NCBI GenBank assembly: GCA_973895155.1
Contig: OZ316891.1
Location: 16,123,137-16,187,136, forward strand
Source of the DNA: Marsupella aquatica
Lineage: Eukaryota; Plantae; Marchantiophyta
Length of the DNA: 64,000 nt
Reading direction: 5' to 3'
In this document: piece by piece, positions 1 through 61,548 of the stretch
How positions within the stretch are numbered: the stretch's first letter is position 1
Layout: every line of letters begins with the position of its first letter
Position numbers and translations under genes: made by a program
Notes under the pieces: model-generated
What the model was told of the DNA's origin: nothing
Seen by the model: only the letters and a program-made list of their open reading frames with translations
Databases searched by the model: none

Positions 1-1731
1 TTAAAAAACTTACCCTTGACAGAGTCACCATATTTCCTAAAATCATTCGTAACTATTTCAATGAGAGATTCGAATGATTCACATGCCCAATCTTGTAAGC
101 GATTCACGGGAATGGTTTGTTGGACCTCTCGTAGATCACATTGCAACATCCCCACCGCAATCCCTTCTACATTATTCCATGGAATCCAAGTGTGACACCA
201 CTGTTTGACTGGATCATCATTGACGCTATTCGGATGGAAGAATTGTCTCCGGAGCTCCGGATTGCAATGTGCTACAAGCAAAGTACTTCGTAGCTTGGCG
301 TCAAGAGCCGAAACAGCTGTAAAAAGCCTGGCCCGGTCCATGGTACACAACATGGTATCTGGTTTCTTCTCTCTCTTATTCCTCTCCGTGACAGCATACA
401 TCTCTGTGCACGTAGATAGAAAGTCCTCAAACTCTGGACTCAACAAAGGAGTGATTTTCAAGGTCTTAACTGCCCATTCCTTGGTTGCTTCCTTCATCAT
501 AACGGCATGCCTTATGGAAACCTCCTCGACCGACCAAGGGGTACCGAGGGTCGCAGCGGACTCCATGTCAATCTTGAACTGATTCGAATACGACTTAATC
601 TTATCCTGACATAGAATGTACAAAAGAGCCTCCTGAGGCATCTTCTTTGTGTACCAGGATCCTTTTCACGTCTTCACCCTGATCTGCTCAAACTTCTTGT
701 AATTTGCAGGGTCGATGAGCTTACTATAGTACTCCAGGTCGTGCATCAAGATCCGCTTAATTCGATCGGCATCTAGGATCCAGGAGGGTTCCACAACTGC
801 TTGTCCTAGCCTGAAATAAAAGAACGAAATGAGAACATATAAGCAGCGCCGGGCGCTAGCAAAAAATTGCCTCGAAAAGTTATGCTAGAAAGAATGAACA
901 ATTCATAATGACTCACGAAGTTCTGCACCAAAGGGTATCTTACTGGTTAACGGTGTGCATAGCCGCTTCGATTTCTATCAGCGAACTCTTGTCGCCATTG
1001 AAAACAGTACAAAGCACACGCGGGTGGTACTTTGGGTTTTCGGGACTCTCTTGAGTGACAAGAGTCCACGAGTAAAGCCTATGGTTCCCGTCAAAAACTG
1101 AGAACATTATGTCTTTCAAAACTAGAAAATCTGGGTCGGCAGCATATTCTTCCTCAAATTTCTCGTTCTCAGATGTCCATATTGGATCCCAACTCTCATG
1201 AATTTCTTGAGTATAGGTGAGAAGCGCTCCCTCAGCATCGGTAGGCTGAACGTAAAACCTCATTCCAATCGAAGAATTGTATCCCATGCTATGGAAAGAG
1301 TCTTTTAGCTTGTCGATGGAAGAACTGTCTTTCTATAGAGTTCGGACAACCTCCATATGCACCAATCGACATAGTGGAATTCATGGAGGCTCTTTGTCAA
1401 ACCCTCTGAAATCCTTCCCAAACGACATGACATGTTTTGAAATAAGATCCGTCTCGGAAAACGAAACATCTTGAATCGCAAATGTGTCAAGATTCTCCAT
1501 CTTCTTTCTCGCTGGTTTGGCAAACGAAATACTTGAGATTGGAACAAGCGATGCGGTGGACCTCGTTACTCGACGCGTATACACTGAACCAGAGAATGAA
1601 GACTCAGAAGACTCGCAATACCCACGATCCTGATCCCCATCCACACTATACCCCCTCGACGAGGAGGGGATTGCATCCATCGTCTTTACGATGAAAGGTG
1701 TACGAACGGAATCCTCACGACTAATTACCAA
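1..1731 (-). pseudogene. ParB/Srx-like domain gene, 5' part (runs off window); intron 811-943
   Basis: Reading through TGA/TAG stops gives IPLCRLVHMEVVRTL.KDSSSIDKLKDSFHSMGY...VFDGNHRLYSW, a ParB/Srx-like pattern. GT-AG intron (CA|GTAAGA ... TTTCAG|G) joins HTVNQ to LGQAVVEPSW, at the same position as in copy B. Start codon uncertain (1680-1739). Confidence 0.7.
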
Positions 1732-4700
1732 TTCTCCATACCATATTAACAGTTGCGTCCGTATTATATCCGATCAATGAGCGCTATTCCCCTCTTTGTA
1801 ATCGGTTGGAGAGACGTTACTCATTGCGAACGACAAGATTCAATTTAATTTATCAGTGACGGAAAGCGACAACTTAGAAATTGCGATAAGTATTAATGTG
1901 AACTAAGCTAAAATGTTTGCGTGATAATCACGCTGAACATTAGTTACCGTTAAAAGTTACCGTTGTCTCAGCACCTTGCGAACAAACATGCAATGCCAGC
2001 GCCGGGCACCAGCAAATAAGAGACTACCAAATTGAAGAACTTATTGGTGAACAAATGCTAGCGCCCGGCGCTAGCCATTTGAATAATTTCATTAACGTTC
2101 TTTCTAAGCAATATATATTGTCAACAAACTCCTAAATGTACCTGTTTCACCTGTAGTAACCAAATTTTACTTAATATTATGAGATTAAATTTATTGTATC
2201 AATAGTAGCGCCTGGCGCTAGTAAAAATTCACTATATTTGCATCAATATTTAGTATGTAATTATGCTAGCGCCAGGCGCTAGTCATAATACTTTTCAAAT
2301 TATGTCATTGTTATTACAATGGCTTTTAGGTAGCGCCCGACGCTAATGAAATGGACGCACTTGTATATACTACTATCTAGTCGTATTCATGTAATAAATA
2401 TTCCTGACACCCGCACTTGACGGGCAAAAACGACAAATGTATCATTTATGATTTCAACGGACGAGTGTTCTATGTCGTATTGAAACGTCTCTTTCAACGG
2501 CCGGTGGTCCTCGAAGGGGTGTTATAAGCACAAGAAATACGGTTGGGATTGGGCTATTGCATGAATTACTTCTGGCCTAAACTTCTTTCGTCTACAATGT
2601 CGCGCTCAATTGTTATTACACGTGCTTATACCCGGGAAGTCGTCAAAGTTCCCGTGCAGGTTTCTGATACTTATAGGCAAGTAAGCGAGAACTATCTGTG
2701 CGGGAGATTTGATTTGAGAATCAATGACATTCTGTCGATTGTTCTTGAGGAGTCATCGAGTGGAGGACATGAACCAGCTACGGCATTTGATGTGGATGAC
2801 GGAATACGTTTCTGGCACATGAATGTAGGACTTCGTTACACGCTTCATGTCAAACCTACTCCTCTTCAATCGGTTGTTCAGGACATTCCGCCCCAGGTTG
2901 TTGAAATATCTGAGAGTGAAGATGAGGAAGTTGCGCCCAATCCTCCTAAGAAGCACAAAGCTCCAAGCTCTAGTTGCCTTAAGAGTGAACCGGTGGCCAC
3001 TTCCACTGTAGATGTCCAAAAGGTTTACAGGCGGAGTGCAATGGACGCCTTACTCAAGGCCACAGGCCATAGTGAATTGTCAAGATTTATCTCGGCAGGG
3101 GACTTTCGACACGATCAAGTTCCTTGTTTGCCAAACAAGTACAACGGAAATATTGTATTTGAATTGCCTCCCATTGTGGGAATGCAGTCCAAAGGATCTA
3201 GACTTCGTGACATGGACCGTGCCAAAGATTGTTACATTTGGACCAGGATTTTTCCAACGACCGTAAACGTGCAACCAAAGAAACACTGGGAGTTTGGTAA
3301 AGTCAGTTGTACTGGGTTCGTCGAGTGCAGGAACAAGTCTTGTGAATATTTTTTGCGAAAGAAGAGATGCAATTCTAAAGCGTGGGCTGGTACCCCTAAG
3401 CTTAGTGGCCAGCATGTGGTGGGTTCGCTCATTGAAGAGGGTGGTATAGTATGTCACTACTGTGAAAAGATTCCTTTTTGTGTGGACTCTTGCCCTGCTC
3501 GCTTGTTTTATATGTATCCACAGGTCCTACTTGATACAGAAACCTATAGTCACATGTCTCGTCTCGCGATACATATAGGTGAACATAATCATCCGAGTAG
3601 AAAAGTTTTCTCGAGGAGTGCTGAAAAGATGGCCGAGGACTTAATAAAAAGAAATCACGAAGCCAATCCTCTTGCAAAACCGGCTGGGATTTTGAATTCG
3701 ACGACTGGTTCGCTTGTGAAAGCTCTTTGCGAGAACGTTGACGACATCATAGATATTGAAGAAACCGAAATTTGGAAGTCTCTCATGGTTCTATCTACTC
3801 CTCAGAAATTTGCGTCCCTTTGTCGCAGCATTTGAATGGACCAGGCTGGTCGTGGTGAGTTAGATTTCCTAGCTCGAATGCAAAGGTCAAATAATATTTC
3901 TTTTCTCCAAAGGTATCTTCTTCCGGGTCAGGGTTGTTTAGCAGATCGTCCCCACATATTCAAAATGTCAATGAAGGGTCATGGATCTGGTGTAGATCTT
4001 TTACGTCAGATGCAACCTGGCGGAAGACTGGAAGGGGCTTGGGTGAGTTTTGATGTCATGAAGCGAGTGACAACCGACTGGTTTACTTTTAGCACACACG
4101 TTTACGATCACAACTTTCGAGCTCTTTGTACAATATTCACATGCGAACTAAAAGCTGAAGACATAGAGTCCTTTGAGAAGGCATGGAGAATTATGATAGA
4201 GGTTTGTAAGGAAAATGGGTTACATGAGGTTACCATTCAAGGTTTTATGGCTGACAATGCTCAGGCTGGATGGATTGCCGTTCGCAATGTCTTTTTTGGG
4301 GGTCACCCAGACCCTGAACGTGAACGCTCCGATGCATTCCACTTTTACCAGTCTTTCCATCGACATTCCACCGAGGGAGTACTCGAGGGTAGGCAACCTG
4401 AACATCTAAGACTGTGGGAGAAATTGCAAAATGCTCCATCATTCGTTGCTGCGTACCGAGTTTCTAGGGAGATTGTGTTATGGTGGCAAGCAGGCAACTG
4501 TGTTCCAGGGAAACTGATGATGTTGCAGAGTTGGATATCATGGTGGGTCGTTCGATGGCATCAGTGGGGGAATTTCATTCGCGTGGTAAGTTTTAGCAAT
4601 GCTTACAATAGTCACTTCGCCATGTTTTTTACTAGCGCCTGGCGTTGCTTTTAACTGTACAGATGCCAACATTATATTATTACATCATACACAATGCTAG

Positions 4701-6625
4701 CGCCTGGCGCTGCTTTAAACTATACAGAGAACTTTGCCACATTCATGACTTATGAACACTTGATAATACCAACATTACCGTAATATATATTATATACATT
4801 GCTAGCGCCTGGCGCTGCTTAAACAAATTGACTAAAGTTGGTCTGGATCCACTTCATTGTAGAGCAAAAGCGCAGAAGAAGGTGCCCTCATTCCAAACTG
4901 TACAGGTTTTGAGTCAAGGCACGCTTCAATGAAAGCATGGGCAACCAAGAAAATGGTGGGCCTCTTCGAAGCATGCCAAGTTGATCAAAATCGGGCTATA
5001 TCTCAAGTTGCAGGTTACAGTGCATATCGGAAAGGACTCAATAGAGGGAAGGGGCCAACTATCTGGGAATTGGCATTCCGTTCGGCAGACCAAGCAGGTT
5101 CACCCAAGTTATTCGAAGAAGCCACTAACATGATTCTTTTCAACTCTGCCGATTTTGATCTGGGTAGGAATTCTCCTCTGAATGGAGATATTGTCACCAA
5201 ATCGGTTAAGAGGAAGGGACTTGCAACTGGGATTGTCTCACCACAAGACTCCCATCGGCATGACACCATTCTCATCACTACCCCAAATACTCGAGGATTC
5301 AAACGGAAGAATCTCAACAAGACTGAGTTCACTTCCATTCCCGCCAATGTAGTAGATCCTATAGTAGACCTCTACGGGAGTGACACTTCAACAAGTGAAA
5401 GCGGTTCCCTTGTGAACACCCCTGAAGCCACGAGGGAAACAACATCATCTCAACAACCACGTAGTGCCCCCGCTGTGGTTCAACGTTTGCCGACAGAATC
5501 AGGTCCATTGGAAATGGACGTTCCAAGAGGAAGCTGGCATTTGAGACGGACGGCCAAATATGGGGCAGGGGCATAGTGTAATGGGACCTTGCATGGAAAT
5601 TCTGACAGAGATGAGTGTCAAAATCGTGTCAAGAAAATAGGGTTCCATTCTGCTGCCGGTGTTGTCGGCATTGTTGTCAGCGGACATCGCATTTTCAGAG
5701 GAACTCCCATTGCCGAAATGATATGGTTCTGCCCAAACAGCACATGCTACAAGAGCCGCCCGCGTCGTGGTGTTGAACGCCTTCCTCCTGTACCGGACAT
5801 CCTGCCAGTTGTGAAAGGAACAAACCTTTCGCTTGGAGAGATAGAGTACCTTCAAGCGCAGGGAGTCTCTATGGTCCAAACAGCTACGCCCTCTCGAACT
5901 CGAACTGCACCATTTGCATTCGACTTGAGAATCAATGTTAACACATTTCCAGAGAAAATCAATTTTGCGGAGCCCAACGTGCGCCTTCGTAGCAGGAATG
6001 GGAGGAACTCCAGACCTCGCTCTAATCTAACTGTGGCTCATAGTAAACGAATGGAGTCGGCTCGAAAAGAAGCTATGACTCTGGATGGAGAGTGGGATGT
6101 GATTAGTGGAATTGCTTATGGGAAACAATTCAGAATACGGACTCATGAGAACCTTCGATCGCCAAACACTTACTTTGTCCAAATGTGCATCTTCCCTACT
6201 TGTTCCTGTGAGGATTTCTTCCATCGTCATTCCCGCGGCAAGCCGTATATGCCCTGTAAACATTTGTACTAGGTGTTCATAAATGTCTTCAAGTTTCATG
6301 TAGAGGAGTCTACCCTGTGTAGCCAGCCAATTTTGACAGTTGGAGAAGTCAGACTTGTGTTGGAGAGGCACAACGCAAATGGTTTATAGAGGGACACGAT
6401 TTATCCTTAACTATCGTATTCCATAACGGATACTATGTTGTTTTGTCTTTAGTCAACGGATATTACTTTAGGTTTTTATGTGGTTTTGGTTAGCGTCGGG
6501 CGCTGGTCAATAACTTATTTATAAAATTTTGTTTTTTGTGGTTATTGCCATTGGATGGTTCAATAAGCTTTTATTATCGTCCCATTATTCTGCGTACTTA
6601 ATCCTTTGTTAGCGCCTGGCGCTAG
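844..6625. repeat. Dispersed palindrome TAGCGCC(A/T/C/G)GGCGCTA, copy-A set
   Basis: Copies at ~844, 1997 (degenerate), 2057, 2206, 2265, 2331, 4632, 4696, 4801, 6491, 6610. All lie in introns, the intergenic spacer or the 3' flank. Confidence 0.9.
2597..6389 (+). pseudogene. MULE-like DDE transposase with N-terminal GCM/WRKY-like Zn finger and C-terminal SWIM finger; intron 4586-4862
   Basis: ATG at 2597. Cys/His cluster CTGFVECRNKSC...CHYC...C...HIGEHNHP. Putative DDE: FDVMKR, FMADNAQAGWIAVRNVF...FH, and CTGFESRH after in-frame splicing (GTG|GTAAG...TGTAG|AGC). SWIM: CSCEDF...PCKHL. Three in-frame stops (3833, 5574, 6270). Ends GL* like copy B. Confidence 0.75.
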
Positions 6626-7039
6626 TTTCACACTCTGCCTGACAGACCCCTATGTTTCCGATAACATAATTCAGTCCACAACTGGCTTTGTGGTGGGTCC
6701 CGCCTGAGCATACTCCATTTCTCCATGGGTATTATTATGGTTAGCCTTTTTTTAACCACACTAATGAAGTATATGAACTAAATGAAGCATTTAAAAGTGG
6801 ACTGTTTAGAAATGTTGTTGTATATAAACAGCAGTGAATTGAATGACAACCCTTTTTTATCTATAATCTGAGCAAGTGACAATGGATTGGAACCTCTCCG
6901 AGCAACTGTGAGCACACTTCTCCCTTAGATCTGACGTCGTGTCTTATGCCAGTAGGAATATTTTTGGCTTAAGTATGTGGTTGTTCCTTACGTGAATTTT
7001 AGAAAAACTTTGCCAAATAATACACTTTTACAATAACAA

Positions 7040-7077
7040 TTTCCTGTTACCAGGAGAAATTACCTGGTAACAGGAAA
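7040..7077. repeat. Perfect 15-bp-stem subterminal hairpin
   Basis: TTTCCTGTTACCAGG-agaaatta-CCTGGTAACAGGAAA, about 20 bp before the end of element copy A. Confidence 0.85.
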
Positions 7078-7100
7078 ACTGTTTCCTGTTTCCTGTCTCC

Positions 7101-13690: not shown

Positions 13691-13699
13691 GGTGTTAAA

Positions 13700-34929: not shown

Positions 34930-34949
34930 AAAACAAAAGACCACACTTA

Positions 34950-43319: not shown

Positions 43320-43482
43320 TCTGCTACCCGCTAGTCTGCTAGTCCGCTAGTATGCTATCGCTAGTCTGCTAGTCTGCTAGCCGCTAGTCCGCTAGTCTGA
43401 TATCCGCTAGTCTGCTGGCCGCTAGTCTGCTATCCGCTAGTCTGCTAGTCTGCTAGCCACTAGTCTGCTATCCGCTAGTCTG
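43320..43482. repeat. 8-bp microsatellite (CTAGTCTG/CTAGTCCG) in the outer LTR X
   Basis: About 20 degenerate units, in the region where the other two copies carry the 26-bp array. Confidence 0.8.
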
Positions 43483-46195: not shown

Positions 46196-46655
46196 GAGGG
46201 TTTTCCACATGACAGGAAACAAATTCTAGTAACAAGAAGCAACCAATTTCAATAGTAAAAGAGCCACTGATATTCTCAGGATATTCAAAGGACACAAGAA
46301 AAAAAAGAGTTGAAAGAAACAATTTTACATAGGCAAATTAACAAAATAGTGGAGGAAAAAAGAACATATATTAGTAGCGCCAGGCGCTAGTGACATGTGC
46401 TACTTCAAAAGGCCATTACAATGATATCCAGAAGGAAATAAGTAACCCTAATCACATATTCCAAAAACCTACTGCAAAAATGAAACTAACGAGAGAAACG
46501 AAAGGAGCAAAAAAGCAAACCCGGCTGAATAGAAGCCACTGTTCAAAGAGAAAAAATTGGAAGTAGATGACAGTAATGCAAATCATCAACCAGTCCAAAG
46601 ATGAGTCGAAAGCTAGCGCCAGGCGCTAGTTTTGGAGAAGAAATCTGTACACTAC

Positions 46656-47129
46656 TCACGACGTAGAAGACATGCAATCGTCTTCCAATCCTGCTTTAAA
46701 CCTATCCTCATCCTGTCGAAACCCCTCCTCTCGCACAACAAAAAAACGCGGTCCGGGATAGCGGCTCATCGGGCAGTTCGGGATGTTTGAATCTCCAAAA
46801 CTCACACGTCCAGTGTATTCTTGAATGTCCCTAAAAAACTCTGTCCTTGCAACCCGATAGACATCGAAAGGATCCGGATCATGAACAAAGAATCTCTCGC
46901 GGAAAGCAAGTGGAGGCGAAGGATCACGCGACGGAAGGTGTTCTGATCTGTGGCTGAAACCCTCATCCGGGGCCAGCCATAACCTGTTCCTCTTGGTCAA
47001 CGTCTCCGGGTATTGCATCACGGAAGAAGATCCAATCGACCTCATAACCTTCGTGTTTGGCGGAGTCTGGCTCCCCAATTTTGCAATTTTCTTCCCCTTA
47101 TCCATCGAGGCTAAGGGAATCACAGCCAA
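46656..47129 (-). CDS. Hypothetical 157-aa ORF/exon inside element B
   Basis: Open frame ending at a GTGAGT donor-like site and flanked by palindromes; no recognisable domain. Confidence 0.35.
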   Translation of the reverse strand: MAVIPLASMDKGKKIAKLGSQTPPNTKVMRSIGSSSVMQYPETLTKRNRLWLAPDEGFSHRSEHLPSRDPSPPLAFRERFFVHDPDPFDVYRVARTEFFRDIQEYTGRVSFGDSNIPNCPMSRYPGPRFFVVREEGFRQDEDRFKAGLEDDCMSSTS

Positions 47130-47490
47130 ACAACGGGCAGCTGAATAGTTTGAGAAAAGCCAAGATTAGTCCGAGTAGATGGAGAACTTCCAGGAGCGGG
47201 CGCCTCTCAGAAAGAATATGGAGAAGATGTTTAAGAAAGAGTGTCCTATCGAGAAAGAGAGAAAGACCAAATCAACGGAACATATCAGACGAATACGTAT
47301 GAAAATAAAAGTACAATATTTTTTGTACAATTGTACAAGTACATGCATTGATGGTATCCGCACACATATGTACTTAAATAGAGACTTCCGCTGCGTTTGT
47401 CTCCAGTGAAGAGTGAGATAGGAACATACACTTTAATAGCGCCAGGCGCTAGTACAAGGTTCCCAAGAAAACATTAAAGTTACACTTAAC

Positions 47491-50400
47491 CTACTCCAAG
47501 TCAGATGACTCGGACTCGCTACTGTTAGACCTGTCGGTAGACTCAGCTTCATCGTCTATAAATTTGCTTCTAGGCACATCATTGAGGAAAGGCTGGTGGA
47601 TAAATTTCCTAAGTATCTAAACCTCTCCTTAACCGTAGCCCCTTACTCTCCCAAGTAAGTGTTCTCCTATGTTCTTCTTTGCATGCAGCATATTCTGCAT
47701 AAGAGGGCAACACGAAAGGCTTCTGAGGCAAAATGAGAACTTTCCTAGAAAATTTCCTCCGTAGATTAAACCGTTCTTGAAGATTCCACTCCGATCTGGA
47801 AGAGGGACGGAACCGCATTAGAATTAAAAATCAAAAGGGGACATGTACATAATTGATAATGTAAAGTGAAGTAGCTTACGGGCATTACTTAGAAGAATCC
47901 GAATCTTCTGTTTCTTCCGTTGTCTCCCTCTCTTTTTGGTTTCCTGCATTCTCTTCTCCTGGTCCTCCAGAAGCATCATCTCCACCCGCCTCTTCCTCTT
48001 CTTCTTCTTCAGAGTCAAAATTCAAAACAGAGCAAACTTTATCTTTTGGTTTTTTCCCGCATCTTTAGCGGGAGATGAGGAACTGACATCTTTTGGAATC
48101 AATAACTCCATCCATGTCTTTTTCGCAATATCAACAAACTCTTTTCGGTTTTCTATACCAAGAATAAAACGACCACTATAGTCACCCACAACAAATGTAC
48201 TTCCCGAACCCACAGTCCAGTCCATGACAATGTCGCCCGGCCGGGTGATTAACTCTAATACGGATTGCATAAACCCAACCGACAAGCGTCCGTTCCCAAC
48301 AAATGCAGCTGAAGGAGTTGGATCCTTCCTCACACTTGGGAGGCCGATAAGATTAGTGATCGATGGATCTTCTGTTGCAGAGAGGGGCCAAAACACGACT
48401 TTGGAACCTTAACCTTTGAAGAAACACGACTGAACAGATCCAATCTTAAAGTGAAAACCTGTGAAAGACCCAAACAATTAATAAGTTCTTTCTAGAATTG
48501 AATACCCTAAACAGAAGAAAGTCCCTATCATGAAGCGAAGACGAATACATTTTGGATAGCGCCAGGCGCTAACAAAGTACAGCCTTTAAATGTAAGGGTG
48601 TATAAAAACATTTTTAGATAGCGCCCGACGCTAACAAAGTTTAGCCCACAGATGCAAACATGTTTTTGGATAGCGCCCGGCGCTAGTAAAGATCAGCACG
48701 TAGAGTGAGATACATATCATTGAAAATTTGGAAACAACATTATAATTGGGTGGGAATTCACCTGACAATCACTGCGGGCCATGTACATTGGAACTCCCAT
48801 AACCACGTTGAGGGTTTTCACACACTGGAACTTCTTGGACTCCTGGCTCGCGGCAATGACCTGTGAGATCTGATCGTACTTGCCGGTGTGCAAAATGGCC
48901 AGTAAACCATCATCGGCTAAAAAAGGGTCCATTGCGCTAAAGAATGACCCAACAATTCTATGATTTGGGAACTCCACTTCAGAGACTTCTTCTCTAAAAG
49001 AGATGGGCGCAGTCCAATTGGGAGGTAAACAAATCCAACATCGACTCCAAATGATCTTATCTTTCCTCCTCTTATGACTCCTTTCTCCCTGAGGCCAAGC
49101 AAGACAAGGTCTTTCACCCACTTCTCCACATTTGACACCCATGCCGGTTTTGCTCTTTTGTGAATACACTATCAAAGAAGTCCATCACACTGGACTCCAC
49201 AAAAACATGCCTAGTAGTTTTAGACTTGAACTGTCCAACATCTCTTTCAACACCAGTAGAAGCGACCGAATCCCGAGAGGAAAATCCAAGATCCGAAGAT
49301 TTCTTTTTCTTCGTGCTAGTGGCATCAGCGGGTCACACCATCTTCTCTGTGTTGGGAGGAGTCTCTTCATCAGGGACATCTTGTTCCCCCGTATCTGCTT
49401 TAGAGACGCCAGGAGTGACAGTAGTCTTGGCATCTTGTGTTTCTTCTCCATTGGATTTCCGTCCACCTAAAACAAAGATTGAAAACATTGCAAACCTTAC
49501 AATCTAAATAATACCAGCATCGGGCGCTAACCAAACTGCACAAAAAGCAACCAATAAAGAGACAACAACATCTGCGGCGCTAAACTAAAATCACTGAAAT
49601 ATCCACACTAGTAAAGGGAAAATTTGGAATAACAGTAAAAAAAATAGAAGAATCTCACGTTTCTTCCCAGATCTCGTGGATGGGCTGGTTACTCCCGTGT
49701 CTACTTTTTGCTTTCGCCTGCGGCTTTCGACTCCTATCTACATACAGGACTTCTATTTTGCAATGTTTCTGCAGCTCGATGGATGAGGCATCCACATCTT
49801 CGGATAAACCTTGTTTCATTTCAGAAAGAACTTTTCCAGGCACTAAAGACTTTGAAAATTTTAGAAAGGCATCCTTTTCTGCTTCATCGAAAGGGGTGTC
49901 CCACTTATCTGTGTCTAGATACCACGGACAGTGGGTTATCTCCCACTGTGAAATGTCACGCGGGGGAAAGTCCCCTTCGGCAAGGTACATTGAGTAAAAT
50001 TTGCTAAAAGCATCCCCCTCAAGAACGGACCACTTTTGGAATGTTGGAGGGTAAGCCCAAACATACTCAGGACAAACTGGTCTCCATCGCCATGTAGAAG
50101 CGATAGAGATATCTCTTCGCTCGCTTCTGGTTGCGAATCGTATAGTCTTCCTTGTCCCCGTACTTGGACTGCCAAATTGTGCTAAAAAAATTAGCCTTCA
50201 CTGTTTCACCGTATGTCTTGAAATCATTGGTAATGTTTAATACCAAAGCTTCTAAGGTATCCACTTCTCCTATCGTTAGACGGTCAACAGGTAGGATCGA
50301 TTGGACTTGCAAAAGTGATGTCTTTAACATTCCAATCGCAATTCCTTCCACCCAACTCCACATATGCCAGGTATGACACCACTGTTTAACAGGGTCATCA

Positions 50401-51809
50401 TTAACACTCGAGGGATGGAGAAACTGTTTTATGAGCTCAGGGGTATAGTGAGCGACAAGAAGGGTACATTGCAGCTTTGGATCCAAATAAGAGACAATAG
50501 TGAACAGACGTGCGCGGTCCATTGTACAGACTACAGAGTCCGGCTTCTTTTCCCATTTGTTCCTCTCTATAAGTAGGTACATTTTTGCACAAGTTGATAG
50601 AAAATCACCAAACTCTGGGCTAATCAGGGGGGCAATCTTGGATGTCTTTATGCTGCACTCCTTTGTTGCCTCCTCCATCATCGCAGCATAATGCTTACCG
50701 ATCTCTTCAGATGACCACGGGCGACCTTGACTTGTAGCAGCAGCCAAGTCAAGCTTAAATTGAAGTGAATACGACTTAATCTTGTTTTCACACAAGATGT
50801 AAACCAATGCTTCCAATGGCATTTGCTTGGTATACCATGACCCCTTTCTTGTCTTGGCGCGAATAGACTGAAATTGCTTGAAGCTAGTAGGGTTGATAAT
50901 TGGCTTGTAGGCCTCCAAGTCATGCGTTAGAATCTGATTAATTCTATCAGCGTCAAGAATCCATGACGGTTCCACCACTGCTTGCCCTAACCTGAGAAAG
51001 ATACCATAAATAAGCAGCGCCAGGCGCTAACCAAGCTTTCAAAAATCAAGTGCAATCTATCAAATTTAATAGCATTTATGCAACTAAAGGATGACTTACT
51101 GGTTCACCGTGTGCATAGCCGCTTCAAGCTCAACGAGAGAACCTGGATCTCCCTTAAAGACAATGCATTGAACATGCGGATGGTACTTGATATTGTCTGG
51201 GTTCTCATTTGTCACTTGAATCCACGAGTAGAGTTGATGATTCCCGTCAAAGACACAAAACATCTTATCCTTCAAGACATGGAAGTTAGGATCAGCAGCA
51301 CATTCTGCCTTGAACAAGTCGTTCTAAGAAACCCAAACAACATCCCAGGTCTCCCAGATTTCAGACGTACATAGTTGAATGACCCCTTCGGAATCCGCAG
51401 GTTGGACGTAAAACCGCATCCCTATTGAAGAGTTGTACCCAGAGCTCCGAAATGAATCCTTGAGCTTGTCGATAGATGCACTGTTTTTCTGTAAAGTCCA
51501 AACGACTTCCATGTGAACAAGGCGGCAAAGAGGGATACGCGGTGGCTCTTTCTTCTCCCCGTAGAAATCTACTCCAAATGACATAGCGTACTTGGCGATG
51601 ATAGCATCCATGGATAGAACTCCCTCACCCCCGTCCTCCATCACAAAATCTCTGTAAGACTCCATCAGGCCTTGTTTCGGCTTTGGAATTCCCTGACTAA
51701 TGTTTTGAAAAGTGTCCGATGCAGACGAACGGGTGACTCTTTGTGTATAAACCGATCCAGAGAACGAGGACTCGGAAGTTTTAGAATGGCCAGGAGAATG
51801 ATTCTCCAT
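47491..51809 (-). pseudogene. ParB/Srx-like + beta-class N4C/N6A DNA methyltransferase-like multi-exon gene
   Basis: ATG 51809; VFDGNHQ. Introns 50992-51099, ~49467-49658 and 48459-48761. Motif IV-like VDVGFVYLPIGL (~49010-49050), then FLADDGLLAILH, then motif X/I ITRPGDIVMDWTVGSGSTFVVGDYSGRFILGIE (~48150-48250). Acidic tail. Several frameshifts and stops. Confidence 0.7.
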
Positions 51810-53325
51810 GGTTGTTTAAGACCCAGACACATGCAGAACCTGTAGTGCAAAGTGTTTCTCGTGTGTTGCAACGTTTCCTGTGGTGCTGTACAGATAAGGA
51901 CAAATGACTGATCACGACCCAAACTACCTGCTCAGTGGTCGTTCTAACAATCACAAAAGACAATCTCGCAAAGAGATCTTATCTGATATACTCTCTGGCA
52001 GACCCACAAGTGTGACAAATATGCATGGAAAAGCACAAGCATCAAAAAACAAACAAACCAAAGATTGACACTTGTTACATTTTGACTTGCTCAAATGTAC
52101 CAATGAGCAAATATATCCTCGAAGTGGTCATAAATTGGAACGGTAAATGGTACAAGTTACCGTTATAAAGGACCATTAATCTGAACATTTTGCATCGAGC
52201 TAATATTAGCGCCTGGCGCTATTATTATGATGGTCTGAAATACAGGTAGAAATGAAGAATTTTAATAATAGCGCCAAGCGCTAGTATGGAGACAATTCAA
52301 AAATGACGTGCAGTTTATAACTAAATTAGAAATGTAAAACCGTATATTTCTATTGATTGAATAATAGCGCCTGGCGCTAGTATGAATACACTACAAAAAT
52401 GACCTAAAGGTTTCAACTAATGTAAGAAAGTTTCAGATACTAATGACCGTTAGACCCTAAGCTAATTATGATGGTTCCAATTAGATATGAAAATGATAGA
52501 TTTCTATACTAGCGCCAGGCGCTAGTGTCAAACTTCCAAAACATGTTCTTGTTTGCTTTCAAAAATGGCAAATTTGGACTTAAATATTAAAAATTTAGTC
52601 TGTGTTGTAACTCATACCTGAGTTAAGTCTACCTTTGGGATAACTACCTATGTAACTACCCTAACTACTTAGGCCGTAGCCACATGTACATATCCTACCA
52701 AGAGTAAAGATGGAACCAACTCTTTGTCTCATTAATCCCACAACACGTTATCAGCACGAGCCTGAGACTGGCTGAACTTTTTTAGGCCATGACTGATTCA
52801 CTCTAAGACGAAGAAAGAAGGGAAAGATGTGATTCGAATGTGCCAAAGTTTTTTTTGCGAGAGCTGCTTGAAGCGCTGCACGAGCAACTTTTCTTTGGGA
52901 GAAAGGCCAAGGAAGAATTGATCCCAGCTATGGTGAATTGAATATCAAGGCGCCATCTTATTCTTAAACTACATCTTTGATTGATAAGATTTCTAGCGAG
53001 CACCAGCTCACTGACGGCTGGTCGTGAGCGCACAACAGATTGGAGTACGACAACCTACTCTATTTCCTGTGTTTGCTTCCAGTTCTACTCGAGTCTGCCG
53101 CTGGAGGCATTCGAAATGGACGAAGCAGTAACAGGATGTTGTGATTTCTTTCCCGACACTACGCTTTCCCGACACTATGCTGACAGAAAAGCAACATTCC
53201 CCTCCAGGGTGAAAAGGATAAGAAGAGCAAGACGACAGCAATAGAGAGAAGACGATCAAAAAGCAGAAAGAAGAATTCAATTAGGACATCGCGACCTCAT
53301 AGGGACAGGCCTTGCTCGATAGCCA

Positions 53326-53442
53326 ATGATAGCCGCACGGGATGCAGCTATCTTGGAGCGAAATTCGGCTATCACGGAGAGAATAGCTGCATATGAGGAG
53401 AGAGACGCTGCCCTTCTGCTACGTGACGTAGCTTACGCTTAA
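53326..53442 (+). pseudogene. BBR/BPC (GAGA-binding, class II) alanine-zipper-like fragment
   Basis: MIAARDAAILERNSAITERIAAYEERDAALLLRDVAYA* matches the ERDAA...ERN repeat pattern of BPC6-type proteins. Confidence 0.6.
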
Positions 53443-53541
53443 GAATGGTTCAAATTATAGATACTTGAGCAGTAATGGCCCAAATCGTACTAGTTGTGAT
53501 TTTGAAGCTGTATGCTAGAGAAAGATTGACATGTAATTTAC

Positions 53542-54111
53542 CTCAAGACCAAGCTGCGTGATTAGAGCCTGGACATGGTCAGCTTTCTCGGAGTGCGAAA
53601 GCTTCGTGGGGAGGCGCACCTCAGCAGCGAACATGAAGGTCTCAGTAACTGTTAGAAAGGGGAAGAGAAGGTCTTCCTGCATCACGTACGCGCTGTTGAG
53701 CTTGATATAGCTGCCGGTCACTTGCTGCCCATCCAGCCGCACTGTCTCGCCCAGACTCCGTTGCTCAATGCGGCCGGCCAGAGCGTCCAGGAAGGTGGAC
53801 TTGCCAACACCGCTCGGTCCCATGATTCCCATCAATTGGCCTCTGATAGCCTTTCCCAAAATCCCTTGCAGAAGGTCGACGGGATAGGACTCCCATTTTC
53901 CGTCGATCTTCTCCTGCTTGACGACAGTGTACGTGAGATCTTCGAACTCGAGGCCCAATTCAGTGGTAAATCTCGTCGGCTCTGCACCTTGAATGGCATC
54001 AGCATTCGGTACTCCAAAATTGAGTTCTTTGTAGCCGCTACGGGACGGCACCTTGTTGATGTCCTCCAGGACAGTTTTCAGCGTCCTCCTGCCATCCTGC
54101 CGATGATTCAT
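53542..54111 (-). pseudogene. Captured first exon of a half-size ABCG transporter, STR/STR2-like
   Basis: GLEFEDLTYTVVK..K.DGKW, Walker A GPSGVGKST-FLDALAGRI, YVMQEDLLFPFLTVTETFMFAAEVRLP. Ends LGLE|GTAAAT at a splice donor. No ABC signature or TM domain. Confidence 0.85.
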
Positions 54112-55139
54112 ATTTCAAAGTGCTCAATCGGATCCGAAGCAAAACAAAAAAAATTGCTGCCAAGATGCTTCGATCCTGAAGACCTTCCAAAAACGCCTTA
54201 CGGTGTCATTCCACAAATTGTCGAGTCTGAGATCAAATAGTTTGTGGCAACAACATTAGAGACTTAAATTAACAGGCGCAAAATGTTTTGGTTTCGGGGG
54301 CCAAGTGAGGCACACTGAGCGTTTGCCGAGATGATACGTGGTTATACTGACGCGTCTGCACGAGTTCCACATTTGAAGTATATAATACGGTTGTATTTTG
54401 TAAGTTCACGGAGATCCGCGTTTTGGAACGAGTCATCAGACCTCCTATTTCCAGTCCGTGAAGGCGACCTCATACGGAAGATTGATTCATAAGGAACACC
54501 CATACGCCTAATTACCAATTGAAAAAGATAGGAAGAGAGAAGACGCTACAGAAATCGAACGCATATCGTGAGCAAGGCAGGCAGCATCACGAACATATAA
54601 AGACAGACAGTCCATGATCGAACGCGAAGGGAGAAACTGAAAAATTTGAAGGAAAGAATGCGAGACAGAGGAGAGAAACAATAAGCACCGAAACCAAGGA
54701 GGATAAATCCAAGAACATTGAAGGAAGCACAAACCCGAAAAAGCAAAGAGAGAACCCTGAAGAACAATGAGGCGAGACCGAAACTGATCGAGCCAAAGAG
54801 AGAACATGAGGAACGCCAGGAGAGAGAAGGACGTCCAATGCAGACGGAGATCGTGGTACAAGCTAAAGACGAGACGCTGGGCAAAGGAGGCAAACAAAGA
54901 GAAGCCATCAAACCAAAGGAAAGTCCTCCACCTTTTCTTCTAAGAAGACCATTTTACACTAAGGAATGGAGAACTAAAGAACAAAGAGACTTTCTCTTCA
55001 AAAGGAAAGAAAAACCAAACAACAAAGCATGAAGTAAGGACATAAAGAAAGAAGCTAAAGTACAGAACCTACATGGCGACAAATGATGATTACTTCCACC
55101 AATTAATTTCATAAATTCAGGGGGAGATATTTTCCCAGG

Positions 55140-55285
55140 GGTGCCTACTACACATAAAAGCCCTGTGCCTACTGCACATGGAAGCAAATGGGTGCCTACT
55201 GCACAGCCAGCCAGAAAGGAAAAATATTTGACAAATTGAGGGGGAGACCTCAAGCAAGACTTGCAAGATGTGCCTACTGCACAAG
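55140..55285. repeat. Four copies of GTGCCTACTGCACA
   Basis: At ~55141, 55165, 55192 and 55271. Confidence 0.75.
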
Positions 55286-56606
55286 TGCTTTTCACAACAA
55301 TCAATATTCAAAAATGGAACTACATTCCATGAGTTAGAAGCATATGGCCAAATTATGAAAAATGCATTAAATCACCAATATTGGATGACATGTCATGACG
55401 ACTAAAATTGGAAATATCAAAGACCCCACATCATATCATAATAAGGTATCATATGATCATATGAAGTATGGTATCACATTACAAGGTACTATCAGGTGAG
55501 GTATGACTTGGTAAGGCACCATGACAGCTGGTACGCTATACCTTGATAGGAAATCCCTATGATATATGAGACCTAGGATTGGACACTCCAAACGATTCCA
55601 AGGCCAACGGATTTCAATCAACCATATCATCTTCATTATGAACTAATACCTTGTTTTTTCCTTGCATGTAATCAATGACCATTGAGGAATCTTCATTGCC
55701 TGATCGGGAAGAGACGCAAGACACAAAACAGCATCAACTTTGCTAACACCAACCAAGGAGGATCTTCAACAAGCCTATAGTGTTGACAAACACCTTAAGA
55801 GACTTTGTAAAAATTACACATACACTATATGCTTAAACCCAATTATGTTACACCCATGGGGATGGTAATACTCTTTCCTCCCACAAAGAAAGTAGGGGAG
55901 GTTTTAATGAGGTTACATCCCCCACTTACACTTTACCATGCAACATGAATTATAAGACATCTATTAGGAGAAGCTTGACATTCATTTATAGTAGACTTGA
56001 GATGGCTACACCATTTATAAAATAGGCTAGACATAAACAAAACCTATTGTATACCACTGAGTATGCCCAAAGTAGACTCTTGATTGTAACATTTAAACCC
56101 CAATGTTACAAAGGGGGAGTGTTGTAACTCATACCTGAGTTAAGTCTACCTTTGGGATAACTACCTATGTAACTACCCTAACTACTTAGGCCGTAGCCAC
56201 ATGTACATATCCTACCAAGAGTAAAGATGGAACCAACTCTTTGTCTCATTAATCCCACAACAGTCTGTATTTTCTACCAAAATAACCGTTAATCTTTGGT
56301 TTAGTACCCCATTTTTTGCAACTTTCAAGATTGTATAACGCTAGCGCCAGGCGCTACTATTTCACCTAGTTGGCAAGAACGACAAAATAATTAACTCAAT
56401 AGTAACTAGCCGTCGAATTGATGGCTTTGTCTTTTTTGGAACAGGAAGAAATCCGTTCCCAATGGTTCCGGTTATCGCTCGTCGTCTCTTTACATTTGAG
56501 ACATGGATTAAGAAGAATAGTGACAAACAATTCCGCCAGTATCAATCAACCTTTATATTACCAAGTCTCATGATTTTGAGTAGTAGGTTCCCTATGTGGA
56601 GTCAGA

Positions 56607-59600
56607 ATATCTCAAGTTATTCGAATAACGTGTCCAACTACAGGTGACGTTGTGACGATCCCCATGTCCATTTCTGACAAGAACAAACACGTTAGTGATA
56701 ATTACCTGTGTAAAAGATTTGGCGTGACGAAGAAACATATTTTGACTGTCAAAATGTTGAACGATGGTCCCGCTCATTTTGATTCTGAAGCCGGGGAAAT
56801 TGTTTGGCATCTTGAATTTGGCGTGGAGTACTTGGTTTTCATTCAAGGAAGGGACATCGTTCAGGTCAAGGTGGAGATACCTCTAGTGTCTCATGAGGTG
56901 ATTGACCTGACGTCCGATGCTGAACTCTCTGAGAGTGAATCCACACCAATCTCAAAGGAGGTTCAGATCAAAAAGGAGTGCGGCAAGACCACTTCCTTAT
57001 TGCCCCAGGTACCCCCTGTATTGACTGTGTTGGAGGGGTCTGATGTTGTATACCCACTTACTCGTCCTGTTCTGGTTGTGTACAGAAGAAGCGCACTTGA
57101 TGCCTTGTTGAAGTCAACTGGACAAAGTGAGTTATCTCGCTTTATTAGGTCAGAGACATTCATGCACGAGTAGGTTGAATGCTTGCCTGTGGTTTACAAT
57201 GGGAATACAATATTTGAGCTTCCACCTGTTGATGGTGTCGGATCCAAAGGGGATCGTCTGCGAAACATGGATAGATCCAAGGACTGCTATCTATGGACTA
57301 GAATTTTTCCTACTTCTGCTAATGTCGTCCCGAAGAAGTTGTGGGAGTTCGGGAGAGTCAGTTGTAGTGGTTCTCTCAAATGTCGAAATAGAGCATGTGA
57401 GTTTTATACAAAAACTCAATGCAGGAATTGTACTGGATGGGATGGGACCCCGAAGCTCTCTGGACAACATTGTCCTAGGAGGTTGATCGATGCTGGCAGA
57501 ATCATTTGTTGCTATTGCCTTCAAGTTCCATTTTGTGTTGAATCATGTCCTGCAAAAATGTTTTATATGTACACGCAAGTTTTGATAGAGGATAACACTG
57601 CAAAGCACATGTCACGACTTGCAATCCATATGGGGGTGCACAATCATCCATGTCGGAAAGTATGGTCTAGAAGTGCTGAGAAAATAGCAATAGAAGAAAT
57701 CCGGAAACAACATGAGAAGTCTCCTTCTTCTACACCATGTGTTTTGAAAAATGAGATCACTGGATCTTTAATGGATGCTGTAGGTGAGTTTGTGGATGAC
57801 ATTTTAAAGCTAGAAGAATCAGATATCTGGAAATCACTTATGCTTGTTTCAACTCCTCAAAAGTTTTCTGCGTTATTTAAAAGCGTTTGTAAAGATCAGG
57901 TTGGTCGAGGTGATCTCGAATATCTGGTTCGCATGCAGAAGAATGTTACATTTCCTTTTCTCCAAAGATATCTTCTTCCTGGGCAGGGGTGTAAGAATGA
58001 TAGAGCACATATTTTTAAAATGACAATCAAAGGGCATGGATCTGGTGTAGATTTACTCCGTCAGATGAAGAAGGGGGGGCCTCTTGAAGGAGCATGGGTA
58101 AGCTTTGACGTGATGAAAAGGATGTCAAAAGAATGGAGTACTTTTAGCGCACATGTGTATGACCATAACTATCGAGCTCTGTGCACAATATTTATATGTG
58201 AACTAAAAGCAGAGGACACTGTATCGCTTGAGAAGGCTTGGAGGTTGATGATCGAAGTGGATTTGGAGAACGGTTTAGAGGGCGTGGAAATTCATGGCGA
58301 ATAATGCTCAGGCAGGATGGATCGCGGTAAGGAATGTCTTCTTTGATGGCCATCCAAATCCAGAGAGAGAGCGATCGGACGCATTCCACTTATATCAGTC
58401 TTTGCATCGCCACTCCATCGAAGGAGTCCTTGAAGAAAAAACGTGGTGAACATCGAGTCCTTTGGGACAAGTTACGGAATGCCGCTTCATTTGTGGAAGC
58501 TTACAGGGTTTCCCGAGAGATTGATTCATGGTGGCGATCAGGAAATTGGATTCTTGGGAAACTTCAAATGTTGCAAGGATGGATCGCATTTGGGGGTTGT
58601 GAGGTGGCATCAATGGGGGAACTTCATACGGTTGGTGAGTGAATCTTTACTAGTGCCAGGCGCTAGTATTAATAGTCCTTTCAAATTAAGATCCATAATC
58701 CTGATTTTGGCTAGCGCCAGGCGCTATCGTAGAGTTGTAATTGTAATTGCCTTCAAAATCATCATGAAAAACATCATTCATAGCTTCCGTCCATATTGAA
58801 TTGTCGCTTTGTTTTTTATTAGTCATATTGTCCTGAATTTGACAAAACTATTTGTCTCTTGCAGAGCAAAAGTGCACATGAAGGGGAGGATGATTCCCAA
58901 TTGCACTGGGTCTGAAGCTGTTCATGGAATCATGAAAGCGTGGCAGGGAAAGAAAACAGTTGGTTTGTTTGAAGGATGTAAGACTGACCACAATAGAGCT
59001 ATCTCGCAAATAGCAACCTATACAGCATATCGTGAAGGTCTCCATCGAGGTACCGGTCCAACAGTGTTTGAATTAGCTTTTCGTTCGGCTGACCAGGTAG
59101 GGTCACCAAAACTGTTCGAAGAAGCATCTAATATGTTACTCGCAAATGCAGCAGAATTTGATTTGGAGAGGGATTCTCCGTTGAATGGGGATTTTGTAAC
59201 AAAGTCTATAAAAAGAAAAGGTCCGGCGACAGGGAATGTCTCTCCACAAGACTCCCATCGACATGACACGGTTCTCATAACAATGCCAAATACCCGAGGC
59301 TGCAAGAGGAGAAATTTGAACTCATCTGAGTTTGAGAACATTCCGATACTTAGAACTCCTCCTTTGAATCCATTTATTGATTTGTTTGAGAGTGACTCTC
59401 CACTTTCCCATCATGCCTCCCAATCTCTTGAAGCTCCTGGAAGTGCTCCGAACACTACTCCATTCATTCCTGTAGACACTTCACTTTTTGAAGTAGACAT
59501 TGTACCCAGGTCATGGCACCTTCGGAGAGTTTCCAGACACGGTGCAGGACCACAGTGTAATGGGACGATGTCTAGAAGTTGTGATCATGATGAGTGTCAT

Positions 59601-60362
59601 AATTGTATTAAGAAGGTTGGATATCCTTCAAATGCAGGGATTGTCGGAATTTTCGTCAAAGGATACTGCTTATTCAGAGGTGAACACCATCCAGAGCTTG
59701 TCTGGTTCTGCCCCACTAGCGATTGCTGGAAAAGCCAACCTTGTCGAGGTATTGCGAACCTCCCTACTTGCCCTGACGTTTTTCCAGTACTGAAAGGCAC
59801 AAATCTTTCAAGTCTGGAGTTGAATTTCCTTCAAGAGTAGGGCATTGAAGTCTTGAGACGAGATAGTGTTGTCTCATGTTGCCCTTCTTCATTTGAACTG
59901 AGAATAAACATTGACATTTTTCCTGAAAAGATCAATCCCGCACAAGTTAACATCTATTTTTGAACGAGAAATGGGCGGGCGGTGAACTCCAGATCAAATC
60001 TCACTTAGGAATATCATAAAAGGATTGAATCAGCACAGAGGGAAACAATGACTCTGATCAAAGCTATGGAAGTTTCATCGGGAAACTCATACGGGAAACT
60101 ATTCCAGATACGCACACATGCACATTTACAAACTGCAAATACTTACTGGGTGCAGATTTGCATTTTCCCTTGTTGCTCTTGTGAAGATTTCTTTCGTTGA
60201 TATTCTCGAGGGAAACCTTTCATGCCATGTAAACACTGGTACTGGGTTTACAAAGCTATATTCAAGCTTGATCTAGTGGACAATGTCCTCCCAAGCCAAC
60301 CGATTTTTACCATTGGGGAACTGCATTATATTTTAGGGAGGCAGAATTATGATGGTTTATAG
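56607..60362 (+). pseudogene. MULE-like DDE/SWIM transposase, copy B; intron 58635-58864
   Basis: Collinear with 2597-6389: FDVMKR, NAQAGWIAVRNVF, CTGSEAVH, CSCEDF...PCKHW, ending GL*. Probable start ATG mutated to ATA. Many stops and frameshifts. Confidence 0.78.
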
Positions 60363-61548
60363 AAAGGCTCACCATTCTAGTATACGTTCAACGGGTATGT
60401 ATGAGTTGTCGTATCGCAATGGTAACTTAGTTTTAGGTAGCACCCGACGCTATTAAACAATGGTTTTGTGGAAAATGTTGTTCTTCCATGTCTAACAATT
60501 TTTAACTTCAAAGCGAAGTTCACATTTGTGTTCAACAAGGCTCAAAGTTTTATGTGTTGCACAAAAAACTTCTTATTTCACCGCTATTGACTTAAGGTTC
60601 TATGAATTTCATTGTATGGATTGTGGAGATGTTAATTTTGTCTGATCGTCACGTGACCTTAAGTTTGGGTAGCGCCCAGTGCTAGTAAACATTTCTTTAC
60701 TTGGTTCCTGTTAGAGCTATTAAATGCGTCTTTTGATAATTGTTGTTTTCCCCATCATATTGCATTTTATGTTGAAATTGACCTCTTTGGTTTTGTCCAG
60801 AATTATTTTGTTTATTTGGATGATAGTACCAAATCTCCTGTTTCATTCCGCTCTTTTTCCTGTTATGATCATTGTTGTTTCCTGTTTCCTGTCACGGAGG
60901 TTGGGCCCTTTGCTGATTCTCCGATGTTTTCTTCTCTAACTCTTCTGCCTTTGCATTTGCTGCAATGAATTACTGTTCTCTACTATTCCAGAAATGTTGG
61001 TCCAGTGCGTTGCTCATCCCTTGGTAGATTGCTACCTGCCGAATGATTTGTCCCGTCATGGTGGTGAAGATGCTGCTTCTTCTAATGTTTTTGATCTCTT
61101 CTCTTAGCTTCTCGATCCCAATTACACTTTGTACCGTCTGTACCTCAAGCGTGGAGCAAGTTTCTATCGCGTATCTAATGTCGGTATCCTCTATGGCTTC
61201 GGAAATGTGTGATGCCTAGCCAGGAATCACTAGGACGGTTTACATGGTAAAAGCAAGAGTGTACCCTAGAAACACCTTAGTATAGTAACAAGACAAGGAA
61301 AATATAAACAATTAAGGGTGACTATGGAACCCGGGCCGAGGCCGGAAGTAAGGACGCCGGGGGAGAGAACACGATTAGGAATAGGGCGCGCTAAGTGTCG
61401 GCGGCTAGGGGTGACCAACGGGAAAGAAGACCAGAGGAGGAGTGGGGTAAGGACCGCTCGCGAGGAATAGTGGCTCATTTGCAAGCACGAACTGGGCAGA
61501 CGACTACGGGAGGCCAAATACTGTCAGCTGCTTAGGCAAGCACTCTGG

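What the first reader, a model, noticed from the sequence alone, without database searches (positions are those of the whole stretch)
844..60686. About 29 CCNGG-centred palindromes confined to the non-coding DNA of this element family
Seen: TAGCGCC-N-GGCGCTA (up to 19 bp, ACTAG/GCTAG arms) occurs in introns, the divergent spacer and subterminal DNA of copies A and B and the fragment. It persists in homologous introns whose remaining sequence has diverged. I saw none in exons or in the intervening retroelement DNA. Established: ParB loads on palindromic parS sites; CCWGG is a known m4C target (MvaI type); VANC binds motifs repeated in non-coding VANDAL DNA. Inference: cis sites for an element-encoded protein (ParB-MTase loading or target site, or transposase binding sites), forming a site-plus-writer self-recognition system.
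Basis: partly seen in the sequence, partly recalled or inferred. Interest (0 to 1): 0.88.

Follow-up and report, generated by a model that had tools for sequence, protein, structure and literature searches.

The report
Transposon's own palindromic protein-docking sites
A plant Mutator-like DNA transposon carries 29 copies of a conserved 15-letter palindrome only in its non-coding DNA, likely as docking sites for its own ParB-like protein, which would let the element recognise itself; the proposed N4-methyl 'writer' role is not supported.

Summary
In detail: 29 sites matching TAGCGCC-N-GGCGCTA (14 exact, 27 within 2 mismatches) lie in 18.5 kb of element DNA, 0 within 2 mismatches in the other 45.5 kb, 0 in exons. 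They persist between copies A and B although synonymous sites are saturated. Neighbouring sites prefer about 62 bp spacing. The element is a Mutator-like transposon with a divergent accessory gene: ParB-like domain, helical domain and beta-class methyltransferase-like domain; named relatives come from liverworts. A relative from another clade (L001) keeps the half-site in the same intron but with no spacer (CCGG), so CCNGG is not the conserved unit. The catalytic SPPY/DPPY motif is absent in copy B and 5 of 5 Riccia proteins. Best reading (0.55): parS-like binding sites for the element's ParB-like protein, working like VANC self-targeting; binding is untested. ParB-plus-methylase accessory genes, and nearby inverted repeats, are already proposed for algal transposons. 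New here: a land-plant case, an explicit site, its spacer switch and its spacing rule.

The parts
844..858 (.). Palindrome in intron 1 of the copy A ParB-like gene; orthologous to 51015
1997..2345 (.). Five palindromes in the copy A divergent spacer (1997, 2059, 2206, 2267, 2331; spacings 62, 147, 61, 64). Site 1997 is decayed here; most contig depth reads the consensus letters at 2008 and 2010
4633..4817 (.). Three palindromes in the copy A transposase intron 4586-4862 (4633, 4698, 4803)
6491..6624 (.). Two palindromes in copy A 3' subterminal DNA (6491, 6610)
45992..46006 (.). Palindrome in fragment C (inverted right end of a third copy)
46375..47451 (.). Three palindromes in copy B left subterminal and intergenic DNA (46375, 46614, 47437)
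48557..48685 (.). Three palindromes in intron 3 of the copy B ParB-MTase-like gene (48557, 48619, 48671)
49515..49529 (.). Decayed palindrome (3 mismatches) in intron 2 of the copy B gene
51015..51029 (.). Palindrome in intron 1 of the copy B gene
52207..56356 (.). Five palindromes in the copy B divergent spacer (52207, 52269, 52365, 52510 and, beyond the LTR insertion, 56342; 167 bp from 52510 before the insertion)
58651..58726 (.). Two palindromes in the copy B transposase intron (58651, 58712)
60438..60684 (.). Two decayed palindromes in copy B 3' subterminal DNA (60438, 60670)
1..1680 (-). Copy A accessory gene, 5' part (ParB-like domain, intron about 811-944, helical domain); broken; runs off the window; start approximate
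2597..6389 (+). Copy A Mutator-like transposase gene with one intron and in-frame stops; limits approximate
7030..7099 (.). Copy A right terminus with ACAGGAA/TTCCTGT units; 18 nt identical to the right end of B
45812..46205 (-). Fragment C: TIR, one palindrome and transposase 3' piece, inverted
47885..51812 (-). Copy B accessory gene: ParB-like, helical and beta-class MTase-like domains; introns 51099-50992, 49658-49467, 48761-48459; broken by a stop and frameshifts; PF01555 match in 48025-48408
46659..47815 (-). Two small ORFs of unknown status (46659-47105; about 47491-47815), no Pfam match
56600..60363 (+). Copy B transposase gene, broken; limits approximate
60826..60895 (.). Copy B right TIR, 88% complementary to 45808-45881; no target-site duplication seen
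52603..56262 (.). LTR element inserted in the B spacer; holds no palindrome

Best explanation
The palindromes are conserved cis sites of a Mutator-like plant transposon and are likely loading sites for a dimer of the element's own ParB-like accessory protein, which would then mark or shield the element against host silencing. Shown: the sites are real, non-coding, family-linked and conserved; the half-site TAGCGCC is the conserved unit; neighbours prefer 61-65 bp; the divergent gene has a ParB-fold N-terminal domain and a methyltransferase-like C-terminal domain without SPPY/DPPY. Inferred: each half-site is read by one subunit; paired sites six helical turns apart allow cooperative binding or bridging; the ParB domain may clamp and spread; the methyltransferase-like domain more likely binds DNA or acts atypically than writes 4mC at CCNGG.
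For: 29 of 29 sites are non-coding and none at <=2 mismatches lies in 45.5 kb outside. Sites survive at orthologous positions while pS is 0.73-0.89 and dN 0.19-0.34 in both genes. L001, in a separate clade (99/98, against 95/93 for A+B), has 3 zero-spacer palindromes in the same intron and none in its exons. 7 of 16 window spacings are 61-65 bp (0 of 100,000 random sets) and phasing at 10.3-10.6 bp gives p=0.0008, or 0.024 without those seven. 4 of 5 two-motif joints in other copies imply 62-63 bp. Model residues about 20-180 of Riccia relative P0073 match Noc (Z 7.2, rmsd 2.9, 99 aligned) and ParB (Z 6.8, rmsd 2.7, 97 aligned); the top five of 48,161 chains are all ParB/Srx-fold. The termini carry a different repeat unit, and the nearest palindrome is 164-475 bp inside. 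Precedent: VANC21 motifs in introns, intergenic and terminal DNA; inverted-repeat arrays beside ParB-like PAG3.
Against: No binding data. No HTH was identified with confidence: only weak extensions to residue about 390 (rmsd 8.5-9.1) and SopB Z 4.2. Z values under 8 are middling; Foldseek gave no hit at E<=0.001, and neither Pfam nor PDB sequence search saw the ParB domain. L001 is a 2-kb contig, so it is unknown whether it carries the accessory gene. L001 spacings (84, 90) are not phased (p=0.66). One joint gave 40 bp. Spacings of A and B are not fully independent, and 4 of 10 tested pairs have flank identity 0.55-0.65, pointing to local duplication. Variant depletion in motifs among other copies is only p=0.07. 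A Mutator transposase alone can bind and activate its own copies.
Confidence: 0.55

Rival explanations
1. The sites are bound by the transposase's zinc-finger DNA-binding domain, as internal enhancers of transpososome assembly or of self-activation.
For: AtMu1c transposase binds cognate motifs and hypomethylates its own copies. MULE transposases carry WRKY-GCM1-fold DNA-binding domains. In L001 the only gene known to be linked to the motif is the transposase. Phased sites would suit DNA looping.
Against: AtMu1c peaks are at the TIRs; here the TIRs lack the palindrome and carry ACAGGAA units. Most sites lie in introns and the spacer, kilobases from the ends.
Confidence: 0.2
2. One reading: the accessory protein is an active amino-methyltransferase that writes 4mC (or 6mA) within the palindrome as a self mark.
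For: PF01555 at E 5e-9; the SAM-binding motif is kept in copy B and 3 Riccia proteins; the gene is under purifying selection in its ParB and helical parts. Active 4mC writers exist in Marchantia and rotifers.
Against: Motif IV is [DH][LM]P[TS]G in 5 of 5 Riccia proteins and YLPIG in copy B (CLPPN in the other open frame), with no aromatic fourth residue; SPPY is required in N4CMT. The centre differs between clades (CCNGG versus CCGG). All 23 deviations from consensus are transitions, 14 of them C>T/G>A, and sites with a central CpG decay more (p=0.002), as expected for ordinary 5mC.
Confidence: 0.12
3. The sites recruit a host transcription or chromatin factor, or a product of one of the two small extra ORFs.
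For: The sites flank both promoters. Two small ORFs sit in copy B and are covered by contigs of other copies.
Against: The spacer switch between element clades suggests co-evolution with an element protein. 0 of 29 sites match the E2F consensus (pattern recalled). The small ORFs have no Pfam match.
Confidence: 0.08
4. The motif is a neutral repeat: a MITE remnant or a self-correcting hairpin spread by local duplication.
For: Some clusters arose by local duplication. One L001 site sits at the centre of a 69-nt near-perfect foldback.
Against: No flanking duplication of 3 bp or more at any of 29 sites; none outside the family in this window; CpG-rich sites persist past synonymous saturation; 5 of 7 pairs at about 62 bp have background flank identity; no Rfam match.
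Confidence: 0.05

Closest known systems
Ectocarpus Sola1-1_Ec32 ParB-like plus N4C/N6A methyltransferase accessory gene (PMC12477816; passages read)
   Same: One protein of about 1,100-1,200 aa joining a ParB-like and an amino-methyltransferase domain, on the strand opposite the transposase; self-binding and self-modification are proposed there.
   Different: Brown alga and Sola superfamily; no binding site is named (0 hits for 'palindrom'); catalytic state not discussed in the passages seen. Sequence kinship to this protein was not tested.
Red algal Plavaka accessory genes PAG2/PAG3, also in Chondrus Mutator elements (10.1101/2025.02.11.637652; passages read)
   Same: ParB-like domain and PF01555 methylase carried by DNA transposons; tandem arrays of inverted repeats beside PAG3 are proposed as its binding sites.
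   Different: ParB is fused to a 2OG oxygenase and the methylase to SET, in separate genes; repeats form an array next to one gene rather than being spread through introns, spacer and ends.
VANC/VANDAL anti-silencing system (PMC5735166; passages read)
   Same: Mutator-like element; accessory protein; short motif accumulated in introns, intergenic and terminal DNA, partly by tandem duplication, differing between subfamilies.
   Different: VANC motifs are 9-base and arrayed in one orientation; here a 14-15 bp palindrome. No VANC-like Pfam domain was hit in any ORF scanned. VANC binding and demethylation were shown; here neither.
Bacterial ParB/parS and Noc/NBS
   Same: ParB-fold N-terminal domain and multiple palindromic sites of similar length (parS properties recalled).
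   Different: No ParA partner; no confident HTH; DGNHR in place of the usual CTPase arginine patch (recalled); eukaryotic intron-bearing gene.
Marchantia MpDN4MT1 and rotifer N4CMT (passages read)
   Same: Beta-class amino-methyltransferase fold in a eukaryote, liverwort lineage for the first.
   Different: They keep (T)SPPY and are shown to be active host enzymes; this domain lacks SPPY and is transposon-borne.

Membership tests
Mutator/MULE DNA transposon | MULE-type DDE transposase | tested here: inconclusive
   Atlas places relative P0100 (35% identical to copy A core) with MULE clusters at 0.95, 10 of 10 best hits; Pfam MULE was hit by 0 of 33 aligned members.
Mutator/MULE DNA transposon | Terminal inverted repeats | tested here: met
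   45808-45881 / 60826-60899, 88% complementary; a second left-type end at about 46211; A and B right ends share 18 nt.
Mutator/MULE DNA transposon | 8-11 bp target-site duplication | tested here: not met
   None seen at 45812/60895 or 46211/60895 by reading the flanks; the locus is nested and rearranged, so this is weak.
ParB-methyltransferase transposon accessory protein (Sola1-1 type) | ParB-like N-terminal domain | tested here: met
   Model of relative P0073: Noc Z 7.2, ParB Z 6.8, PadC 6.1, KorB 5.9-6.5; Atlas DUF3723 and ParB_N clusters for P0071; homology to the window by tblastn. Scores are moderate.
ParB-methyltransferase transposon accessory protein (Sola1-1 type) | PF01555 domain in the same gene, opposite strand to the transposase | tested here: met
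   PF01555 E 5e-9 at 48025-48408; Riccia P0071 (1207 aa) aligns in order along the copy B gene.
N4-cytosine methyltransferase (MvaI/PvuII/N4CMT/DN4MT1 type) | SPPY catalytic motif | tested here: not met
   [DH][LM]P[TS]G in 5 of 5 Riccia proteins; YLPIG or CLPPN in broken copy B.
N4-cytosine methyltransferase (MvaI/PvuII/N4CMT/DN4MT1 type) | 4mC at the target | not testable with these tools
   No base-modification data.
ParB/parS system | HTH domain that reads the palindrome | tested here: inconclusive
   Only weak extensions over ParB's DNA-binding domain (rmsd 8.5-9.1) and SopB Z 4.0-4.2.
ParB/parS system | Site binding, CTP-dependent clamping and spreading | not testable with these tools
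VANC/VANDAL | Family-specific motif concentrated in non-coding DNA | tested here: met
   29 of 29 non-coding; 0 at <=2 mismatches outside in this window.
VANC/VANDAL | VANC-homologous protein | tested here: inconclusive
   No such Pfam hit in the ORFs scanned; no direct comparison with a VANC sequence was made.
Independent MITE | Own TSD and insertions outside the family | tested here: not met
   No duplication of 3 bp or more at 29 of 29 sites; none outside the element in 45.5 kb.

The most novel reading that the evidence does not exclude
A land-plant transposon family has repurposed a bacterial parS/ParB-style clamp: its accessory protein loads on paired, helically phased palindromes in its own introns and spreads along the element, carrying a catalytically rewired methyltransferase domain that shields it from 5mC silencing; changing the spacer by one base gives each subfamily its own self code.
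Probability: 0.25. Interest if true: 0.87.

Novelty: new variant of a known kind. Interest (0 to 1): 0.63.

Why it matters
Two 2025 papers propose that ParB-like accessory proteins of algal transposons bind and modify their own element, and one states that VANDAL is the only transposon known to do so. This locus supplies an explicit, conserved candidate site, a natural specificity variant (spacer 1 versus 0) and a spacing rule, in a lineage close to the tractable model Marchantia. That makes the hypothesis directly testable. If true, it is a second, independently built self-recognition system in plant transposons, using a bacterial chromosome-segregation fold. It also warns that the methyltransferase domain of such proteins may not be an ordinary writer.

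Tried and rejected
No genome is held, so no genome-wide scan. Two word-index searches for longer homologues found nothing. The first metagenome scan gave 0 relatives among 179 pattern matches; the second gave 1 of 23 (L001); viral and prokaryote collections gave 0 of 77 and 0 of 9. Exact motif scans gave 85 viral and 35 prokaryote loci, nearly all single matches, and none encodes a relative: no prokaryotic source array found. Single-sequence folding of the methyltransferase domain failed (pLDDT 33) and was not used; an Atlas look at that domain did not complete. Alignment A2 was misaligned and dropped. BFVD gave no hit at E<=0.001. No RNA holder was listed. No Rfam match. Searching fetched proteins for motif read-through peptides gave 0 of 106. 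Earlier-findings look-ups returned nothing. MITE and E2F readings were rejected. The label 'Copia' for the insertion was not verified.
Full report
Observation. The motif TAGCGCC-N-GGCGCTA occurs 14 times exactly and 29 times within 3 mismatches in 18,523 bp of element DNA. The other 45,477 bp (mostly retroelement DNA) hold 0 within 2 mismatches and 3 at 3 mismatches, near the chance level; shuffles of the element DNA gave 0 within 2 mismatches. None of the 29 overlaps my exon models, which cover 70% of the element (P about 8e-16). CCNGG is intact in 21 of 29 and CCWGG in 17 of 29. All 23 deviations are transitions, and sites with a central C or G are more decayed than those with A or T (p=0.002), which fits ordinary 5mC decay in these dead copies (inference).

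The element. Copies A (1 to about 7099) and B (about 46211-60895) are 64-69% identical in coding DNA. B carries an LTR insertion (52603-56262) and is preceded by the inverted right end of a third copy. One gene is a transposase with Cys/His-rich segments; 33 relatives were found, including Calypogeia fissa proteins. The Atlas places a relative with MULE transposases, although Pfam MULE did not hit. TIRs are present; no target-site duplication was seen. The divergent gene has 65 relatives for its middle part; 5 of the 10 clusters looked up are Riccia sorocarpa proteins, and P0071 (1207 aa) aligns in order along the copy B gene. Whether the Riccia genes sit in transposons was not testable. Both window copies are broken, but many contigs at 80-99% identity lie on both copies in public runs, so the family is multi-copy; the number was not measured.

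The accessory protein. A model of P0073 (52 sequences, mean pLDDT 67) matches the ParB/Srx fold over residues about 20-180: Noc Z 7.2, ParB Z 6.8, and the top five of 48,161 chains all belong to this fold. These scores are moderate, and Foldseek found nothing at E<=0.001. The Atlas adds DUF3723 and ParB_N clusters. No HTH was firmly identified. The C-terminus matches PF01555; its SAM-binding part is closest to the adenine methyltransferases DpnA, CcrM and MboIIA, with PvuII at E=1. At the catalytic position 5 of 5 Riccia proteins read [DH][LM]P[TS]G and copy B reads YLPIG in the frame that aligns with them. SPPY is the N4 signature and is required for N4CMT activity (PMC8885841, passages). An N4 writer is therefore not supported; an atypical or inactive domain is more likely.

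Conservation. Between A and B, pS is 0.73-0.89 and dN 0.19-0.34 in both genes. Orthologous introns, spacer and 3' DNA share the palindrome, two short promoter-side words and the TIR tip, and little else. In other copies the decayed site at 1997 reads the consensus at two positions; 0 of the other 37 listed variant positions fall in the four intact sites, but 75 rows were not shown and p is only 0.07. The strongest outside evidence is L001, the single relative recovered with its DNA (1 of 23 matches). It lies in a separate clade, is 66% identical in exon DNA, and its orthologous intron holds three palindromes of the form TATTGCTAGCGCC-GGCGCTAGCAATA with no spacer, none in its exons and none of the spacer-1 form. 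The half-site is conserved; the CCNGG centre is not. This rests on one contig.

Spacing. Seven of 16 neighbour distances under 300 bp are 61-65 bp, and the set is phased at 10.3-10.6 bp (p=0.0008; 0.024 without those seven). Five of the seven pairs have flank identity at background level, so recent duplication does not explain them, though four of ten tested pairs do look duplicated. Of 12 joints shown (31 not shown), 5 have a motif on both sides; assuming one strand they imply 63, 63, 62, 62 and 40 bp in other copies. L001 spacings (84, 90) do not show the rule.

Mechanism. A conserved palindrome whose half-site is fixed while the spacer changes, repeated on one face of the helix and kept out of exons, is what a dimeric DNA-binding protein would require (inference). 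The TIRs use a different repeat and lack the palindrome, which points away from the transposase and towards the ParB-like protein, whose bacterial relatives load on palindromes (recalled, and stated). I put this at 0.55, the transposase at 0.2 (AtMu1c precedent; section 7 of 10.64898/2026.08.24.746577), an active writer at 0.12, host or small-ORF factors at 0.08 and a neutral repeat at 0.05. An anti-silencing outcome is by analogy with VANC only (PMC5735166, passages).

What is known. The Ectocarpus paper describes a 1104-aa ParB-like plus N4C/N6A methyltransferase gene opposite the transposase of Sola1-1 and proposes self-binding and self-modification. The Bostrychia preprint reports ParB-like PAG3 with adjacent inverted-repeat arrays and a PF01555 gene, also in Mutator elements; its supplements are closed and may list repeat sequences that bear on novelty. 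Iyer 2011 was seen only as a reference entry. Iyer 2016, Walker 2021 and Babu 2006 were read as passages. Searches listed no paper on this element in land plants; the library is open-access only and I did not search for the motif string. The concept is thus in print as a hypothesis; this is a new variant with an explicit site.

Verdict. Real and under selection; interpretation partly right. Interest 0.63.

Noticed in passing
window 52603-56262: LTR element with identical 144-bp LTRs and a 5-bp target duplication, carrying an ABC-transporter fragment (53515-54114, Pfam ABC_tran E 5e-13); a very recent insertion with captured host sequence.
   Followed up: partly
L001:1168-1236: One zero-spacer palindrome is the centre of a 69-nt near-perfect foldback (-38 kcal/mol as DNA); may reflect hairpin extension by template switching.
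   Followed up: partly
window 1942-1964 and 52151-52168; 2423-2437 and 56372-56386: Two further short words conserved between A and B in the spacer, one near each gene start; possible promoter elements. Contig depth also peaks at 2389-2417.
   Followed up: no
window 45812-46205: Right end of a third copy lies inverted against B's left end; the two outer right-type TIRs could have moved as a composite, but no target duplication was seen.
   Followed up: partly
window 46659-47105 and about 47491-47815, minus strand: Two small ORFs downstream of the accessory gene, no Pfam match, covered by contigs of other copies.
   Followed up: partly
window 24252-39027: Gypsy-type element with 4,078-bp terminal repeats 99.8% identical, each holding a 623-aa ORF, around an open 2141-aa polyprotein frame.
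   Followed up: no
window 18470-20972 and 39028-43923: Tandem array of about 1.1-2.5 kb units (92-95% identical) interrupted by the Gypsy insertion.
   Followed up: no
P0071 residues 150-340: The ParB-like domain's nearest Atlas clusters are fungal DUF3723 (a term frequent in Starship papers, search listing only) and an unnamed cnidarian cluster; ParB-like accessory domains may be shared across eukaryotic mobile elements.
   Followed up: partly
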